Shown in pieces: positions 788 to 11,897 of a DNA stretch of 15,370 nt. The stretch comes from a virus. Within the stretch, counting starts at the first letter, position 1. Each line of letters starts with the position of its first letter. The DNA is taken from the UHGV virus genome UHGV-0225464; one strand, 5' to 3'. Under the pieces are notes generated by a model. It was not told the origin of the DNA. It did not search any database and worked only from the letters and a program-made list of their open reading frames with translations. The translations under genes were made by a program, and so were the position numbers.

Positions 788-973
788 TTACTTAATTATG
801 TAATTCATACCCGAACTCTCTGTTGACAGCCTTCTTCTGCAGGCTTCAATAACCCACGCTGAAAAGTTTCCTGAACCTTTCAGATCAAGAGCGATGTTAA
901 TTTGTTCAATCATCTGGTTTGGAAATCGGATGTTGCGGGTTGTTGTTCTGCGGGTTCTGTTCTTTGATGACAT
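788..973 (-). CDS. DUF3950 / YlcI-YnfO family small protein, homolog of the small ORF at the right end of phage lambda
   Basis: 61-aa minus-strand ORF (MSSKNRTRRTTTRNIRFPNQMIEQINIALDLKGSGNFSAWVIEACRRRL...) closely matches my recollection of the lambda right-end ORF (MSTKNRTRRTTTRNIRFPNQMIEQINIALEQKGSGNFSAWVIEACRRRL...). The flanking DNA up to cos (974-1179) is also lambda-like. Confidence 0.6.
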   Translation of the reverse strand: MSSKNRTRRTTTRNIRFPNQMIEQINIALDLKGSGNFSAWVIEACRRRLSTESSGMNYIIK

Positions 974-1179
974 AATGTTTCCCCATATTCAGTGTTGCTG
1001 ATTTGTATTATCTGAAGTTGCTTTTACGTTAATTTGACGCAGATCAATTAATACGATACCTGCGTCATAATTGATTATTTCTCGTGGTTTGATGGCGTAC
1101 ACACATGTTGTGATAAACCTTATATAGATGATAATCATTATCATTTCGTGGGTCCTTTCCGGCGATCCGACCGGTTACG

Positions 1180-1191
1180 GGGCGGCGACCT
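1180..1191 (+). other. cosN 12-nt cohesive end (GGGCGGCGACCT), terminase nicking site
   Basis: GGGTCCTTTCCGGCGATCCGACCGGTTACG|GGGCGGCGACCTCGCGGATTTTCACTATTTATGAAAATTTTCCGG is nearly identical to the lambda right-end/left-end junction as recalled, and sits immediately upstream of the small terminase gene. Confidence 0.85.
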
Positions 1192-1228
1192 CGCGGATTT
1201 TCACTATTTATGAAAATTTTCCGGGATC

Positions 1229-1327
1229 CATGTCCGGTTTCTCTGCAAGTTAACCATATGAAAAATATAAAAACATGCTTTCCATGAACCGGACATGCGC
1301 AAAAAATAGACACTAAAACCGGACATG
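1229..1327. repeat. cosB-like region: three copies of an 11-bp motif AACCGGACATG (1229-1239 inverted; 1287-1297 and 1317-1327 direct), candidate small-terminase binding sites
   Basis: Exact repeats read from the sequence. The arrangement (one inverted site, an AT-rich spacer at 1241-1286, then two direct sites) mirrors lambda cosB R3-I1-R2-R1, but the motif differs from lambda R sites. Confidence 0.5.
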
Positions 1328-1374
1328 ACCGGTTTTGTTGTGATTGTGAGGTGAGAGTTTTTGCGAGGTGAGGA

Positions 1375-1884
1375 GTGGCTACGCAGACTGAAGTTGCCAG
1401 GCATTTAAGTCTGACCGATCGCCAGCTTCGCAGATTGCAGAAATTGCCGGGTGCCCCGATATCGAATAAGCGAGGGCAACTGGATCTGGATGCCTGGCGC
1501 GATTTTTACATATCGTATCTGAGAAGAAGTAAAAACGATGTGCCTGATGGCGATAGCGAAGACGACTATGAGGAGAAATTGCTTATTGCCAGATGGGAAC
1601 TGACAGCAGAACAGGCTGTTACACAGCAGTTAAAAAATGAGGTGTCAAAAGGAAAACTTATTGACACCGGGTTCTGTATTTTTGCCCTCAGCAAGCTGGC
1701 AATGGCGTTATCCAGTACGCTTGATTCCATCCCTTTATCCATGCAGCGACAGTTTCCTGATTTAACACCGCGCCATCTTGACCATCTGAAAACCCTTATT
1801 GCGAAGGGGGCAAATCAGTGTGCGCGGGCGGGGGATAAATTACCGGATTTACTCGATGAATATATCAGAGCAACAACTGAATAA
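1375..1884 (+). CDS. Terminase small subunit (lambda Nu1-like)
   Basis: 169-aa ORF directly downstream of cos with GTG start at 1375 preceded by GAGG. It resembles lambda Nu1 along its length, clearest in the C-terminal part (LSxQRxFP), and its 3' end overlaps the large-subunit start as in lambda. Confidence 0.8.
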   Translation: MATQTEVARHLSLTDRQLRRLQKLPGAPISNKRGQLDLDAWRDFYISYLRRSKNDVPDGDSEDDYEEKLLIARWELTAEQAVTQQLKNEVSKGKLIDTGFCIFALSKLAMALSSTLDSIPLSMQRQFPDLTPRHLDHLKTLIAKGANQCARAGDKLPDLLDEYIRATTE

Positions 1885-3784
1885 TATGATGAGTGCTGTC
1901 ACAACAGCATTACAGCCCCTGATAAGGGCATTGCCGGTGACGCCAGTTGAATGGGCTGATCAAAATTATTATCTGCCTAAAGAATCTTCATATGGTGAGG
2001 GAGAATGGAAAACGCTGCCGTTCCAGATCGCCATCATGAACAGCATGGGGAATGATCAGATCCGGACTGTTAATCTGATTAAATCTGCCCGTGTTGGCTA
2101 TACAAAGATGTTGCTGGGAGTCGCCGGGTATTTTATTGAGCATAAATCCCGAAACAGTCTGCTTTTTCAGCCCACGGATTCTGCCGCTGAAGATTTTATG
2201 AAGTCTCACGTGGAGGCGACGATTCGCGATGTTCCCTGCCTGAAAAAACTTTCTCCCTGGCTGGGACGTAAACATCGTGATAATACCATCACGCTGAAAC
2301 GCTTTTCATCGGGTGTGGGCTTCTGGTGCCTGGGCGGCGCTGCCGCCAAAAACTACCGTGAAAAATCCGTGGACGTGGTCTGCTATGACGAACTTTCCTC
2401 GTTCGAGCCGGATGTCGAAAAAGAGGGCTCGCCAACCCTGCTGGGGGATAAGCGTATTGAGGGCTCGGTATGGCCAAAATCCATTCGCGGCTCGACGCCT
2501 AAAATAAAAGGCTCCTGCCAGATCGAAAAAGCGGCCAACGAGTCGGCACATTTCATGCGTTTTTATGTGCCCTGCCCGCACTGCGGGGAGGAGCAGTATC
2601 TGAAATTTGGCGATGAGTCCACGCCTTTTGGCCTTAAATGGGAGAAGGACAGTCCCGAAAGTGTTTTCTACCTCTGTGAACATCATGGCTGCGTGATCCA
2701 TCAGTCTGAACTGGACCAGAGCAACGGGCGGTGGATCTGTGAAAACACGGGGATGTGGACCCGCGACGGTCTGACGTTTTTCAGCGCCGCGGATAATGAA
2801 ATTCCGCCGCCGCGCTCCATCACATTCCATATCTGGACGGCGTACAGTCCGTTCACCACCTGGGTACAGATTGTCTATGACTGGCTGGATGCACTGAAAG
2901 ATCCCAACGGCCTGAAAACCTTTGTGAACACCACGCTGGGCGAGACCTGGGAAGAGGCCGTGGGCGAAAAACTCGATCACCAGGTGCTGATGGATAAGGT
3001 TGTGCGTTACACGGCTGCGGTGCCTTCCCGGGTGGTTTATCTGACGGCGGGCATTGACTCGCAGCGAAACCGTTTTGAGATGTATGTCTGGGGATGGGCT
3101 CCGGGAGAGGAAGCCTTTCTGGTGGATAAAATCATCATTATGGGGCGTCCCGATGAGGAAGAGACGCTGTTACGTGTGGATGTGGCGATCAACAAAAAAT
3201 ACCGCCATGCAGACGGAACCGAAATGACCATTTCCCGTGTCTGCTGGGACACCGGGGGGATCGATGGCGAAATTGTCTATCAGAGGTCAAAAAAACACGG
3301 TGTTTTCCGGGTGCTGCCGGTAAAAGGTGCATCTGTTTATGGCAAGCCGGTGATCACCATGCCAAAAACCCGCAATCAGCGGGGCGTGTATCTGTGCGAA
3401 GTGGGGACGGACACCGCAAAAGAAATTCTCTATGCCCGTATGAAAGCCGATCCCACGCCTGCGGATGAAGCCACGTCGTATGCCATCCGTTTTCCTGATG
3501 ATCCGGAGATTTTTTCGCAGACAGAGGCGCAGCAACTGGTGGCGGAAGAGCTTGTGGAGAAGTGGGAAAAAGGAAAGATGCGTCTGCTGTGGGATAACAA
3601 AAAGCGGCGTAACGAAGCGCTGGACTGCCTGGTGTATGCCTACGCGGCATTACGTGTGTCCGTGCAACGCTGGCAACTTGATCTGGCTGTACTGGCAAAA
3701 TTCCGGGAAGAAGAGACGACCCGGCCAACCCTTAAAGAACTGGCAGCGAAGCTGTCCGGAGGAGTGAATGGTTACAGTCGCTGA
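1856..3784 (+). CDS. Terminase large subunit (lambda gpA-like)
   Basis: From ATG 1856 the product begins MNISEQQ...VEWADQNYYLPKESSYGEGEWKTLPFQ and contains KSARVGYTK (Walker A-like), closely matching lambda gpA as recalled. The track ORF begins at a TTG at 1799, so I prefer 1856. Confidence 0.93.
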   Translation: MNISEQQLNNMMSAVTTALQPLIRALPVTPVEWADQNYYLPKESSYGEGEWKTLPFQIAIMNSMGNDQIRTVNLIKSARVGYTKMLLGVAGYFIEHKSRNSLLFQPTDSAAEDFMKSHVEATIRDVPCLKKLSPWLGRKHRDNTITLKRFSSGVGFWCLGGAAAKNYREKSVDVVCYDELSSFEPDVEKEGSPTLLGDKRIEGSVWPKSIRGSTPKIKGSCQIEKAANESAHFMRFYVPCPHCGEEQYLKFGDESTPFGLKWEKDSPESVFYLCEHHGCVIHQSELDQSNGRWICENTGMWTRDGLTFFSAADNEIPPPRSITFHIWTAYSPFTTWVQIVYDWLDALKDPNGLKTFVNTTLGETWEEAVGEKLDHQVLMDKVVRYTAAVPSRVVYLTAGIDSQRNRFEMYVWGWAPGEEAFLVDKIIIMGRPDEEETLLRVDVAINKKYRHADGTEMTISRVCWDTGGIDGEIVYQRSKKHGVFRVLPVKGASVYGKPVITMPKTRNQRGVYLCEVGTDTAKEILYARMKADPTPADEATSYAIRFPDDPEIFSQTEAQQLVAEELVEKWEKGKMRLLWDNKKRRNEALDCLVYAYAALRVSVQRWQLDLAVLAKFREEETTRPTLKELAAKLSGGVNGYSR

Positions 3785-11004: not shown

Positions 11005-11025
11005 CGGGTGTTTAGGAGAACACGC

Positions 11026-11457
11026 ATGTTTCTTAAAACAGAACAATTTGAATATAACGGTGTGTCTGTCACGCTTTCGGAGCTGTCTGCGCTGCAGCGT
11101 ATCGAGCATCTTGCCCTCCTGAAACGGCGGGCAGAACAGGCAGAATCCAGCGGCAACCTGCAGGTAAGCGTGGAAGATCTCGTCAGAACCGGCGCGTTTC
11201 TGGTGGCGATGTCCCTGTGGCATAACCATCCACAGAAAACGCAGTCACCGTCAATGAATGAGGCCGTGATGAAGATAGAGCAGGAAGTGCTCACCACCTG
11301 GCCTGCCGATGCCATTGCCCGGGCGGAAGACGTGGTGTTGTGCCTGTCCGGGATGATCGAAGCTGTTCGTCCGGATACTGATATTACTGAAGTGGCGAAA
11401 AATAACACGCTGACTGATGATGATTTTTCTGCGGGAAAGTCTTCGACGGCGAGCTGA
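11026..11457 (+). CDS. Tail assembly chaperone (lambda gpG-like)
   Basis: From ATG 11026 (AGGAG 7 nt upstream) the product begins MFLKTEQFEYNGVSVTLSELSALQRIEHLAL, matching lambda G; the slippery heptamer lies near the 3' end. Confidence 0.85.
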   Translation: MFLKTEQFEYNGVSVTLSELSALQRIEHLALLKRRAEQAESSGNLQVSVEDLVRTGAFLVAMSLWHNHPQKTQSPSMNEAVMKIEQEVLTTWPADAIARAEDVVLCLSGMIEAVRPDTDITEVAKNNTLTDDDFSAGKSSTAS

Positions 11458-11897
11458 ACTTTGCCCTCAGACTGGCGCGTGAGATGGGGAGACCCGACTG
11501 GCGCGCCATGCTTGCCGGGATGACATCCACCGAATATGCCGACTGGCACCGTTTTTACCGCACGCATTATTTTCAGGATACCCAGCTGGATATGCATTTT
11601 TCCGGGCTGACGTACGCTGTACTCAGCCTGTTTTTTTGCGATCCGGATATGCATCCCTCTGATTTCAGTCTGCTTGTCCCCCGGCATGAGGAAGAGCAGG
11701 TGGAGAGGCCGGATGAGGACAAAATGCTGATGCAGAAAGCGGCAGGACTTGCCGGAGGCGTCCGGTTCGGTGGGGACGGAGGGCGCGATATTTTATCGTC
11801 TGCGGATGTGGCGGATGTCATGGTGGATGATGCCGCATTAATGATGGCTTCAGCGGGGATTCCGGGAGGTGTGAGATATGTCCCAGCCGGTTGGTGA
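11026..11897 (+). CDS. Tail assembly chaperone G-T fusion made by -1 programmed ribosomal frameshift (slip at G GGA AAG, 11433-11439; joined as 11026..11439 plus 11439..11897)
   Basis: GGGAAAG is in the correct zero-frame phasing (GCG GGA AAG). The -1 frame stays open from the slip site to TGA at 11895-11897 and encodes EMGRPDWRAMLAGM...HYFQD...GGVRY, matching lambda gpT. Confidence 0.8.

What the first reader, a model, noticed from the sequence alone, without database searches (positions are those of the whole stretch)
1140..1374. cos site with lambda-identical cosN but a distinct cosB repeat motif, suggesting a different packaging specificity
The cohesive end GGGCGGCGACCT and flanking bases are lambda-like. 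The putative terminase-binding repeats downstream are three copies of AACCGGACATG, one inverted and two direct, which is not the lambda R-site sequence. The small terminase N-terminal DNA-binding region (MATQTEVARHLSLTDRQLRRLQ...) is correspondingly divergent from lambda Nu1. This looks like a matched small-terminase/cosB specificity pair, as in lambda versus phage 21.
Basis: partly seen in the sequence, partly recalled or inferred. Interest (0 to 1): 0.55.

Follow-up and report, generated by a model that had tools for sequence, protein, structure and literature searches.

The report
New lambda-like cosB/terminase specificity pair
This is the DNA-packaging start site of a lambda-like E. coli prophage: it has lambda's own cutting site, but its terminase-docking repeats and the matching DNA-binding domain of the small terminase form a separate, very common recognition class, and the same site is also carried by a known phage-parasitic island.

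Summary
cosQ (1150-1156) and cosN (GGGCGGCGACCT, 1180-1191) are lambda's. AACCGGACATG occurs exactly three times (1229-1239 inverted, 1287-1297, 1317-1327). A fourth, 1-mismatch copy (1324-1334) overlaps the third. The copies sit at bp 50-60, 108-118 and 138-155 from the cohesive end, where lambda has R3, R2 and R1.

- The small terminase (1375-1884) has a Nu1-type C-terminal part and an unrelated-looking N-terminal winged-helix domain ("MATQ" class).
- The same C-terminal part occurs elsewhere joined to N15-type or lambda-type domains, each with its own repeat motif.
- Across 42 distinct MATQ domains that have a recognisable site, Arg20 of the recognition helix always goes with GTCCGGTT (5/5). 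Every other residue goes with TTCCGGTT or a variant, never GTCCGGTT (0/37).
- A 47-bp R3-R2 spacer holds an IHF-like core at a fixed offset.

The module is in about 22% of complete E. coli genomes, including O157:H7.

Unexpectedly, the block from cosQ to R1 is also present, without a terminase gene, in the satellite island EcCICFT073. By elimination this is its unexplained second cos site, "cos2".

It is a new member of a known kind. Binding and packaging specificity remain untested.

The parts
1150..1156 (+). cosQ (GGGTCCT), 30 nt upstream of cosN as in lambda
   Evidence: It is conserved in every related locus, including distant MATQ-class loci. It is the left edge of the block shared with the PICI cos2.
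1180..1191 (+). cosN cohesive-end sequence GGGCGGCGACCT, identical to lambda
   Evidence: It is inside the 88-89% lambda-like stretch, window 1000-1224.
1209..1221 (+). I2-equivalent (TATGAAAATTTTC), identical to lambda
   Evidence: Phage 21's record annotates I2 at the same relative position.
1229..1239 (+). R3-equivalent: CATGTCCGGTT (bp 50-60 from the cohesive end), proposed critical TerS site
   Evidence: There is zero variation in 46 distinct cos sequences. It is at the same position as lambda R3, bp 50-65 (PMC9026076). The core TCCGGTT is shared with distant class members.
1251..1263 (-). I1-equivalent IHF-like core (TTTCATATGGTTA, 2 mismatches to WATCAANNNNTTR)
   Evidence: It is not above chance in this window alone. 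However, the best match lies at the same offset (11) of a 47-bp spacer in all 10 enteric variants, with 0 mismatches in four of them.
1287..1297 (+). R2-equivalent: AACCGGACATG, inverted relative to R3 (bp 108-118)
   Evidence: It is nearly invariant. The R3-R2 spacer is always 47 bp.
1317..1334 (.). R1 region: exact copy AACCGGACATG (1317-1327) overlapping an opposite-strand copy CATGACCGGTT (1324-1334). The pair forms a palindrome and is also scored as a terminator-like hairpin.
   Evidence: The copy at 1324-1334 has lambda R1's orientation and position (bp 145-155 here against 141-156 in lambda). The PICI cos2 keeps the 1317-1327 copy only.
1375..1539 (+). TerS N-terminal DNA-binding domain (residues 1-55, 'MATQ' class). 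The predicted recognition helix is residues 15-22 and includes Arg16, Arg19 and Arg20.
1375..1884 (+). Small terminase gene (GTG start, 169 aa). The C-terminal two-thirds is Nu1 family.
   Evidence: Pfam PF07471 matches residues 49-150 with 67.9 bits against a cut-off of 30. The protein is 99% identical to RefSeq WP_000235436.1, which is encoded both in strain 2015C-3121 and in O157 strain 644-PT8.
1856..3784 (+). Large terminase (gpA family), overlapping the end of terS
   Evidence: Pfam GpA_ATPase and GpA_nuclease. The start was checked by translation and against RefSeq annotation of the identical region.

Best explanation
Window 1150-1334 is the cos site of a lambda-like prophage, organised as cosQ - cosN - I2 - R3 - I1 - R2 - R1.

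**Proposed mechanism (inferred).**
- A dimer of the small terminase's N-terminal winged-helix domain binds the inverted copies CATGTCCGGTT (R3) and AACCGGACATG (R2).
- It does so across a bend made by IHF in the 47-bp AT-rich spacer. The R1 palindrome acts as an accessory site.
- This anchors the gpA-type large terminase to nick the lambda-identical cosN 50 bp away.

**What sets specificity.** The pairing of this 'MATQ-class' recognition helix (residues 15-22, with Arg20 reading the G of GTCCGG) with its own R sequence sets the specificity. The phage should therefore package its own DNA and that of same-class relatives, but not lambda, 21 or N15 DNA, despite the shared cosN.

**Shown here:** the sequence anatomy, its conservation, the modular co-inheritance of domain and motif, the residue-base covariation, and the fold.

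**Inferred:** binding itself, the role of IHF, and the lack of cross-packaging.
For: 1. **Position.** The repeats lie at bp 50-60, 108-118 and 138-155 from the cohesive end. Lambda's R3, R2 and R1 lie at 50-65, 100-115 and 141-156. terS starts at +196 here and +191 in lambda.
2. **Constraint.** Among 46 distinct E. coli-type cos sequences, 5 of 33 motif columns vary against 32 of 78 neighbouring columns (Fisher p=0.0085, Mann-Whitney p=0.003). R3 shows no variation. The most divergent E. coli variant (83% identity, with an insertion) keeps three exact cores.
3. **Module swapping.** TerS proteins sharing this C-terminal part (52-61% identity to the window protein over the whole alignment) carry an N15-type or a lambda-type N-terminal domain instead. 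Their cos regions then have GGTTGTTGTTT repeats (the N15 R3 sequence) or CAGATCC(G/T)TTCT-type repeats at the same places.
4. **Covariation.** Of 50 distinct MATQ-class domains, 42 have a recognisable CCG[G/C]TT site. Arg20 goes with GTCCGGTT in 5/5 and non-Arg20 in 0/37 (naive Fisher p=1.2e-6). Two of the Arg20 cases (L123, L146) have non-Arg nearest neighbours, so there are at least 3 lineages. Lambda (Asn21, TTTCC) and phage 21 (Arg21, TGTC) show the same pairing at the aligned helix position.
5. **Deep conservation of the core.** Distant members (Aeromonas, Pseudomonas, Microbulbifer, Azospirillum) have tandem TTCCG(G/C)TTCCGGTT just upstream of terS. In phiARM81ld, whose record starts at the cohesive end, it lies at bp 54-68.
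6. **IHF.** The spacer is 47 bp in all 10 enteric variants. The best IHF core is always at offset 11, and is a perfect match in four.
7. **Reverse test.** 107 of 120 IMG/VR loci with the motif pair have an Arg20 MATQ terS immediately downstream.
8. **Trans-acting signal.** The other 12 informative loci are EcCICFT073-type islands. They carry exactly the cosQ-to-R1 block and no terS.
9. **Fold.** The N-terminal domain is predicted as a winged helix-turn-helix that superposes on a lambda-family TerS DNA-binding domain.
10. **Working phages.** Plaque-forming phages PhiR12_1 to _5 carry the same module at 99.1% identity.
Against: - There is no binding, footprint or packaging experiment for this class. 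None was found in the searchable literature.
- In this window the IHF core match has 2 mismatches and is no better than chance on its own.
- Sequence-level homology of the N-terminal domain to lambda Nu1 is weak: hhalign probability 30% and no PDB hit. Foldseek E-values were all above 0.5.
- The covariation count is not phylogenetically corrected.
- The R3 core here sits about 3 bp closer to cosN than lambda's. In lambda, a 3-bp spacing change is deleterious (PMC9026076).
- The motif resembles phage 21's R core, so some cross-recognition with 21 is not excluded.
- The R1 palindrome also scores as a terminator-like hairpin.
Confidence: 0.8

Rival explanations
1. The site has the same packaging specificity as phage 21. 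The repeats are only a drifted version of 21's R sequences, and 21-type terminase would recognise them.
For: The phage 21 R cores are CGTGTCGG, CCGACATG and CATGTCGG at the same positions. The motif here is CATGTCCGG, which is one inserted base. Arg occupies the aligned helix position in both proteins.
Against: - The recognition helices differ at most positions: TDRQLRRLQK here against DPRTIERWQS in phage 21.
- The N-terminal domains are not alignable by HMMER.
- The extra base shifts the two half-motifs relative to each other.
- Lambda and 21 discriminate more than 1000-fold with fewer differences than this (PMC4669245).
Confidence: 0.08
2. The repeats are mainly a transcriptional element, or are sites for a protein other than the terminase. 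For example, they could form a terminator or attenuator hairpin ahead of the late head genes.
For: 1314-1337 scores as a terminator-like hairpin on both strands, and 1221-1237 is a weaker one.
Against: - A hairpin does not explain the invariant R3 copy 60-90 bp away.
- It does not explain the fixed 47-bp spacing or the covariation with a TerS residue.
- It does not explain why the block is retained next to cosN in islands that have no head genes downstream.
- Salmonella and Citrobacter relatives lack the R1 palindrome but keep R3 and R2.
Confidence: 0.05
3. The repeats are neutral, inherited by descent with the terS gene, and have no function. The module is a relic in defective prophages.
For: Many of the E. 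coli copies are in prophages that may be defective. For example, terL is frameshifted in O157 strain 644-PT8. The sampling is dominated by close relatives.
Against: - Three exact 11-mers within 100 bp are not expected by chance.
- Motif columns are less variable than their surroundings.
- The core is conserved from E. coli to Azospirillum, while everything around it differs.
- Propagating phages carry the module.
Confidence: 0.03

Closest known systems
Phage lambda cos (cosQ-cosN-I2-R3-I1-R2-R1) with gpNu1/gpA terminase
   Same: - cosQ, cosN and I2 are identical or nearly so.
- There are R-type repeats at the same distances from cosN.
- R3 and R2 are inverted around an AT-rich spacer that holds an IHF-like site.
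- terS starts about 195 bp from the end.
- The Nu1-type C-terminal part of TerS, the gpA-type TerL and all head genes are lambda-like.
   Different: - The R sequence is CATGTCCGGTT, not CGTTTCC(G/T)TTCT.
- The N-terminal DNA-binding domain is unrecognisable by sequence.
- The third exact copy has R2's orientation, with an overlapping opposite copy.
- The R3 core is about 3 bp closer to cosN.
Phage 21 cosB / gp1 (the classic alternative specificity)
   Same: The logic is the same: lambda's cosN with a different R sequence and recognition helix. The R core CATGTCGG is one base away from CATGTCCGG. Arg sits at the aligned helix position.
   Different: Phage 21 gp1 has a lambda-type N-terminal domain (54% identical to Nu1 over 70 aa). 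The domain here belongs to another sequence class.
N15 / Monarch cosB (R = AGGTTGTTGTTT; simple or tripartite)
   Same: It is a third, separately evolved TerS domain and R motif in lambda-like cos phages. Like N15 and Monarch, the MATQ class has both simple forms (R3-only, tandem) and complex forms (R3-I1-R2-R1) (PMC4669245).
   Different: The domain (MAVLLNKSDMASS...) and the motif are different. Chimeric proteins show that the two domains are exchanged on the same TerS C-terminal part.
EcCICFT073 PICI cos sites and Rpp (Fillol-Salom 2018, 2019; Murialdo & Feiss 2022)
   Same: The island's second cos (NC_004431.1, cosQ at 1388338 on the - strand) is nearly identical to window 1150-1327, from cosQ through R1.
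   Different: The island has no terS. Its cos1 uses a different R3 (ACACCACCACC) read by the Rpp-TerS complex. The window is a complete phage head-tail module, not an island.

Membership tests
Lambda-like cos site | A 12-base cohesive-end sequence related to GGGCGGCGACCT, with cosQ GGGTCCT about 30 bp upstream | tested here: met
   Both are identical to lambda, at 1180-1191 and 1150-1156.
Lambda-like cos site | cosB with repeated R sequences: R3 about 50 bp from the end, R2 inverted, an IHF site between them, directly upstream of terS-terL | tested here: met
   The repeats are at bp 50-60, 108-118 and 138-155. The spacer is 47 bp with an IHF-like core at a conserved offset. terS is at +196 and terL follows.
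Lambda-like cos site | Terminase cuts here to give 12-nt 5' cohesive ends in virion DNA | not testable with these tools
   The PhiR12 records are deposited in prophage order, and no end-mapping data were found. EcCICFT073's two cos sites were each shown to be functional by others (PMC6092414). By elimination, one of them (cos2) is the near-identical copy of this cos.
Nu1-family small terminase (PF07471) | Whole-protein score above Pfam's cut-off | tested here: met
   67.9 bits against a cut-off of 30, but only residues 49-150 match profile positions 62-163.
Nu1-family small terminase (PF07471) | [quoted passage not shown] | tested here: inconclusive
Lambda packaging specificity | R sequences CGTTTCC(G/T)TTCT and recognition helix RTIQNWQE | tested here: not met
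   The R sequence is CATGTCCGGTT and the helix is DRQLRRLQ.
Phage 21 packaging specificity | R core C(A/G)TGTCGG and recognition helix RTIERWQS | tested here: not met
   The core has one extra base (CATGTCCGG) and the helix differs at most positions. Functional cross-recognition was not tested.
N15/Monarch packaging specificity | R = AGGTTGTTGTTT and the TerS domain MAVLLNKSDMASS... | tested here: not met
   Both are absent from the window. They are present in the control locus L110, which shares the TerS C-terminal part.
PICI Rpp-dependent cos | cos followed by rpp (no TerL-binding C-terminus), with R3-PICI ACACCACCACC | tested here: not met
   The gene after cos is a full-length TerS followed by terL. 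The PICI motif is absent.

The most novel reading that the evidence does not exclude
The MATQ-class cosB is a self-contained packaging signal that satellites steal.

**The claim about cos2.** The unexplained 'cos2' of the archetypal E. coli island EcCICFT073 is a near-exact copy of this phage cos, from cosQ through R1. It would let the island be packaged directly, without Rpp, by the very common MATQ-class prophages, including those of O157:H7. cos1 plus Rpp, in contrast, redirects lambda-, phi80- and 21-type terminases. Sister islands instead pair the MATQ-class cos with an N15/Monarch-type cos. This island family would therefore widen its helper range by carrying two convergent cos sites of different terminase classes.

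**The claim about the recognition code.** Within the class, one helix residue would switch specificity: Arg20 with GTCCGG, or Asp/Asn20 with TTCCGG. This would be a simple, testable recognition code that parallels lambda against 21.
Probability: 0.45. Interest if true: 0.7.

Novelty: new member of a known kind. Interest (0 to 1): 0.58.

Why it matters
Packaging specificity decides which DNA a terminase will encapsidate when several lambdoid prophages and satellites share one cell.

- **Reach.** This class sits in about one in five complete E. coli genomes, often in 2-4 copies per genome, including O157:H7. One working terminase could therefore mobilise defective neighbours of the same class.
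- **A natural experiment.** It adds another cosB/TerS pair to lambda, 21, N15/Monarch and Gifsy-1. It comes with a single covarying residue-base pair that can be tested by swapping one amino acid and one base pair.
- **An open question made testable.** It offers a concrete answer to a question the discoverers of Gram-negative PICIs left open, namely why EcCICFT073 has two cos sites. It also predicts a new set of helper phages for that island.

Tried and rejected
- **Sequence searches of the TerS N-terminus against solved structures.** The single sequence and the 12-sequence profile gave only insignificant HTH hits and never lambda Nu1. Sequence homology is therefore not claimed.
- **IHF consensus scan of the window.** It found 97 matches against 96 expected, so it is uninformative alone. 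Only the fixed offset in relatives is used.
- **GTDB genome scan.** It returned only 9 loci. The first IMG/VR scan returned 80 near-identical E. coli loci, so divergent queries were needed.
- **The partial GACCGGTT left of cosN (1169-1176).** It was considered as an R4-like site and rejected, because it varies freely in relatives.
- **Whether the window is itself a satellite.** Rejected: the full lambda-type head and tail gene set is present.
- **Literature.** Searches for the motif and for cosB specificity classes found no description of this class. Subscription-only papers could not be searched (for example Feiss et al. 2015 and Vahanian et al. 2017, both in Virology). Prior description cannot be excluded.
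- **Two papers opened and found irrelevant.** These were PMC12315714 and PMC9836094.

Full report
**1. Observation**

- cosQ GGGTCCT is at 1150-1156.
- The cohesive-end sequence GGGCGGCGACCT is at 1180-1191, followed by CGCGGATTTTCACTATTTATGAAAATTTTCCGG. This differs from lambda at two bases.
- AACCGGACATG occurs exactly at 1229-1239 (- strand), 1287-1297 (+) and 1317-1327 (+). There are no other exact copies in the 15.4-kb window.
- Counting up to two mismatches there are 10 matches against 4.6 expected, a number no shuffle reached.
- A fourth copy with one mismatch lies on the - strand at 1324-1334. It overlaps the third copy and makes the palindrome AACCGGACATGACCGGTT.
- The ORF at 1375-1884 starts with GTG and encodes MATQTEVARHLSLTDRQLRRLQK....

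**2. Context**

The window is the left arm of a lambda-like prophage. The genes are:
- TerS;
- gpA-type TerL (1856-3784);
- W, the lambda-family portal, the S49 protease (C), D and E;
- FI, FII, Z, U, V, G/T, H and M.

Window 1000-1224 is 88-89% identical to the right end, cosN and I2 of lambda and many lambda relatives. That identity stops at about bp +45 from the cohesive end, immediately before the first repeat.

The cosB-plus-TerS-domain segment (1225-1560) is found in 1,186 of 5,426 complete E. coli genomes. The median is 2 places per genome and the maximum is 4. O157:H7 strains are among them. The window TerS is 99% identical to RefSeq WP_000235436.1, a protein encoded both in strain 2015C-3121 and in O157 strain 644-PT8. 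Five deposited phages propagated on K-12 or E. coli C (PhiR12_1 and relatives) carry the module at 99.1% identity.

**3. Anatomy compared with lambda and phage 21**

| Feature | This window (bp from the first base of the cohesive end) | Lambda |
|---|---|---|
| R3 | 50-60 | 50-65 |
| R2 | 108-118 | 100-115 |
| R1 | 138-148, with the overlapping copy at 145-155 | 141-156 |
| terS start | +196 | +191 |

These positions come; the lambda R3 coordinates are also given in PMC9026076. As in lambda, the first and second copies are inverted relative to each other.

Phage 21's annotated R boxes have the cores CGTGTCGG, CCGACATG and CATGTCGG. The motif here, CATGTCCGG, is therefore the 21 core with one extra base. 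It is not an unrelated sequence.

**4. The small terminase**

- Pfam's Nu1 model matches only residues 49-150.
- In tblastn, lambda, phi80, 21, N15 and Gifsy-1 align only from about residue 59-73 onward. Pseudomonas phage LPPA33 (43%) and Aeromonas phage phiARM81ld (35%) align over the full length.
- The N-terminal domain finds no solved TerS by sequence. It aligns only weakly to lambda-type domains by profile-profile comparison (probability 30%). That alignment puts residue n of this protein opposite residue n+1 of Nu1.
- An AlphaFold model (mean pLDDT 75, about 80 in the domain) predicts strand - helix 4-10 - helix 15-22 - wing - helix 38-54.
- Foldseek lists MerR-like winged helices and the lambda TerS domain 6hn7_B, but with non-significant E-values.

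I treat the fold as supported and homology as likely but unproven.

**5. Evidence that domain and repeats are a matched module**

(a) *Domain swaps.* Homologues with essentially the same C-terminal two-thirds (from ...DYEEKLLIARW onward) carry three different N-terminal domains: this MATQ type, an N15 type (M.FLLNKSDMASS...) and a lambda type (MKVNKK...).
- The cos of an N15-type chimera (L110) has GGTTGTTGTTT three times, which is the N15/Monarch R sequence.
- The cos of a lambda-type chimera (L111) has CAGATCC(G/T)TTCT-type repeats.
- Neither has a CCGGTT motif.

(b) *Variation within the class.* Enteric MATQ variants fall into two groups:
- Helix ...RQLR-R-LQK (this window, a Salmonella locus and a Citrobacter locus) goes with ATGTCCGGTT.
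- Helix ...R.LR-D/N-LQK (Klebsiella, E. coli and Salmonella loci) goes with A(T/C)TTCCGGTT at the same positions.

(c) *Distant members.* Members from Enterobacter, Microbulbifer, Azospirillum, Pseudomonas-type phages and metagenomes have a simple cosB. It is a tandem TTCCG(G/C)TTCCGGTT just upstream of terS, after a conserved cosQ-like GGGTCC. In phiARM81ld, whose record begins at the cohesive end GGGCGTTAGACC, it lies at bp 54-68.

(d) *Tally.* There are 50 distinct domains, of which 42 have a recognisable CCG[G/C]TT site.
- Arg20 goes with GTCCGGTT in 5 of 5.
- Non-Arg20 goes with it in 0 of 37 (naive Fisher p = 1.2e-6).
- Two of the Arg20 cases (L123, L146) have non-Arg20 nearest neighbours. 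The association therefore arose at least three times.
- The same pairing holds in the lambda-type lineage at the aligned position: lambda Asn21 with TTTCC, and 21 Arg21 with TGTC.
- In lambda, genetics links helix residue 24 to bp 56, which aligns with the covarying base here (PMC9026076). Residues 20/21 and 24 are about one helical turn apart, so both can face the same groove. This last point is my inference.

- The spacer is 47 bp at all 108 sites measured. These lie in the 107 loci that have an Arg20 MATQ terS immediately downstream.
- One locus runs off its contig.
- Twelve are satellites.

**6. Constraint and the IHF site**

In 46 distinct E. coli-type cos sequences (81 loci), R3 shows no variation at all. 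Five of 33 motif columns vary against 32 of 78 neighbouring columns (Fisher p = 0.0085, Mann-Whitney p = 0.003).

In ten enteric variants with otherwise diverged spacers, R3 and R2 are always 47 bp apart. The best match to the IHF core WATCAANNNNTTR is always at offset 11 on the - strand.

| Mismatches to the IHF core | Number of variants |
|---|---|
| 0 | 4 |
| 1 | 3 |
| 2 | 3, including this window (1251-1263) |

Lambda's and 21's own spacers score 1-2 mismatches. In the window alone the match is not above chance. The argument for I1 therefore rests on positional conservation.

**7. Mechanism proposed**

By analogy with lambda (PMC9026076), a TerS domain dimer would dock on R3 and R2 across an IHF bend. 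R1 would act as an accessory site. TerL, tethered through the Nu1-type C-terminal part, would nick cosN. Specificity would come from the MATQ helix and the CATGTCCGGTT motif. All binding steps are inferred.

Rivals considered:
- the same specificity as phage 21 (the cores are similar, but the domain is different and the site has a 1-bp insertion);
- a transcriptional hairpin (1314-1337 scores as terminator-like, but this cannot explain R3, the spacing, the covariation or the satellite copies);
- neutral repeats.

**8. Unexpected link to satellites**

The twelve terS-less loci are EcCICFT073-type PICIs. They encode an integrase, a small HTH regulator, Icd-like proteins, DUF4222, a D5_N primase, SSB, PerC, a lambda-E-like capsid protein and a D-like decoration protein.

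In CFT073 itself (NC_004431.1):
- One cos, with cosQ at 1387528 on the + strand, precedes rppA. It has the published R3-PICI ACACCACCACC.
- A second, convergent cos, with cosQ at 1388338 on the - strand, is nearly identical to the window from cosQ through the third repeat. Similarity begins exactly at cosQ and ends exactly after R1.
- Only two cos sites exist in that 18-kb stretch. The second is therefore, by elimination, the published 'cos2'.

Fillol-Salom et al. reported the following about cos2:
- It is functional.
- RppA-TerS does not recognise its cosB.
- They could not identify a phage cosB in it.

No later paper in the library mentions cos2.

All 14 island loci examined have two convergent cos sites. 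These are the 12 from IMG/VR, CFT073, and the complete-genome copy of the L203-type island (L282). The MATQ-class cos is paired with the Rpp type in 6 and with an N15/Monarch type in 8.

This shows that the roughly 175-bp cosQ-to-R1 block moves and is kept as a unit without its terminase gene. That is what a trans-recognised packaging signal should do. It also suggests that cos2 serves helpers of the MATQ class. The suggestion is a hypothesis, not a result.

**9. Comparison with the literature and novelty**

The packaging specificities described in the papers I could read are lambda/phi80, 21, N15/Monarch, Gifsy-1 and the Rpp-dependent PICI cos (PMC4669245, PMC9026076). None mentions this motif or domain. 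A full-text search for the 11-mer found no phage paper. Subscription-only papers could not be checked.

The thing itself works like a known kind, a lambda-type tripartite cosB with its cognate TerS. I therefore file it as a new member of a known kind. Its interest is raised by three things: its abundance, the one-residue/one-base covariation, and the cos2 connection.

**10. Verdict**

- Observation: confirmed.
- Interpretation: supported by comparative evidence, with three corrections. The motif is related to the 21 and lambda R cores. There is a fourth copy. The module is common.
- Confidence that the repeats are the TerS recognition sites of a distinct cosB class: about 0.8.
- Interest: 0.58.

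Noticed in passing
L283 (NC_004431.1 E. coli CFT073): cosQ at record 1387528 (+) and 1388338 (-). Compare window 1150-1327.: The PICI EcCICFT073 has two convergent cos sites. One precedes rppA (R3-PICI ACACCACCACC). The other is a near-exact copy of this window's cos from cosQ through the third repeat, with no terS. By elimination it is the published 'cos2', whose role its discoverers left open.
   Followed up: partly
L203 9484-9700 (+) and about 10049 (-); L282 (NZ_CP145707.1, island at tRNA-Pro next to yejM). Also L253, L163, L170, L178, L189 and L206.: A sister PICI type pairs the MATQ-class cos with a convergent N15/Monarch-type cos (GGTGGTTGTTGTTT). It keeps only a 22-residue remnant of rpp. 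All 14 island loci examined have two facing cos sites of different classes, with cosN to cosN distances of 535 or 750 bp.
   Followed up: partly
L100, L102, L106, L109, L112 and L119 (upstream of terS): There is a sister subclass of the same TerS domain with Asp or Asn at residue 20. It has A(T/C)TTCCGGTT repeats instead of ATGTCCGGTT, at identical positions. Four of these loci have a perfect IHF core in the 47-bp spacer. This may be a second specificity within the class. The PICI cos2 carries one such copy (AACCGGAAGTG or a variant) just after R1.
   Followed up: partly
Alignment A1 (P0056, P0060, P0069, P0073 against P0063, P0087 against the window TerS): Natural chimeric small terminases exist. 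One C-terminal (TerL-binding) part is joined near ...DYEEKLLIARW... to MATQ-type, N15-type or lambda-type DNA-binding domains. This indicates a recombination junction inside terS.
   Followed up: partly
window 1344-1355 and 1361-1372: There is a tandem 17-bp-spaced repeat, TTGTGAGGTGAG / TTGCGAGGTGAG, containing the Shine-Dalgarno-like GAGGTGAG just upstream of the GTG start of terS. Several E. coli variants have length differences (indels) in this stretch.
   Followed up: no
window 11433-11439: GGGAAAG lies near the end of the G-like tail chaperone ORF (11008-11457) and ahead of the T-like ORF (11484-11897). This is the lambda G/G-T -1 frameshift arrangement.
   Followed up: no
window 788-973 (- strand): A small ORF (61 aa) on the opposite strand, upstream of cos, matches DUF3950 (E 9e-19). 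It lies in the lambda-like right-end region.
   Followed up: no
L130-L145 and L159 (about 90 to 60 bp upstream of terS): Pseudomonas-type MATQ-class loci share GGGTAATTCG(A/C)G(C/G)CCCG at the place where cosN should be, after a cosQ-like GGGTCCTCC. This may be a different cohesive-end sequence used with the same TerS domain class.
   Followed up: no
L151; also L019 and L154: These are outliers of the class. A Gln19/Arg20 helix (L151) goes with tandem CGTGTCGTGTCA, which resembles phage 21's core. GERHIRK helices (L019, L154) go with GGCCGGGGCCG. Both suggest further specificity variants.
   Followed up: no
Rpp sequences in Table S1 of PMC9026076 against window 1375-1440: Helix 1 of the Rpp proteins (SQQEIAEHF) resembles helix 1 of the MATQ domain (TQTEVARHL). 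Their recognition helix (RTTIRAWTK) resembles lambda's. No significant alignment was obtained.
   Followed up: no
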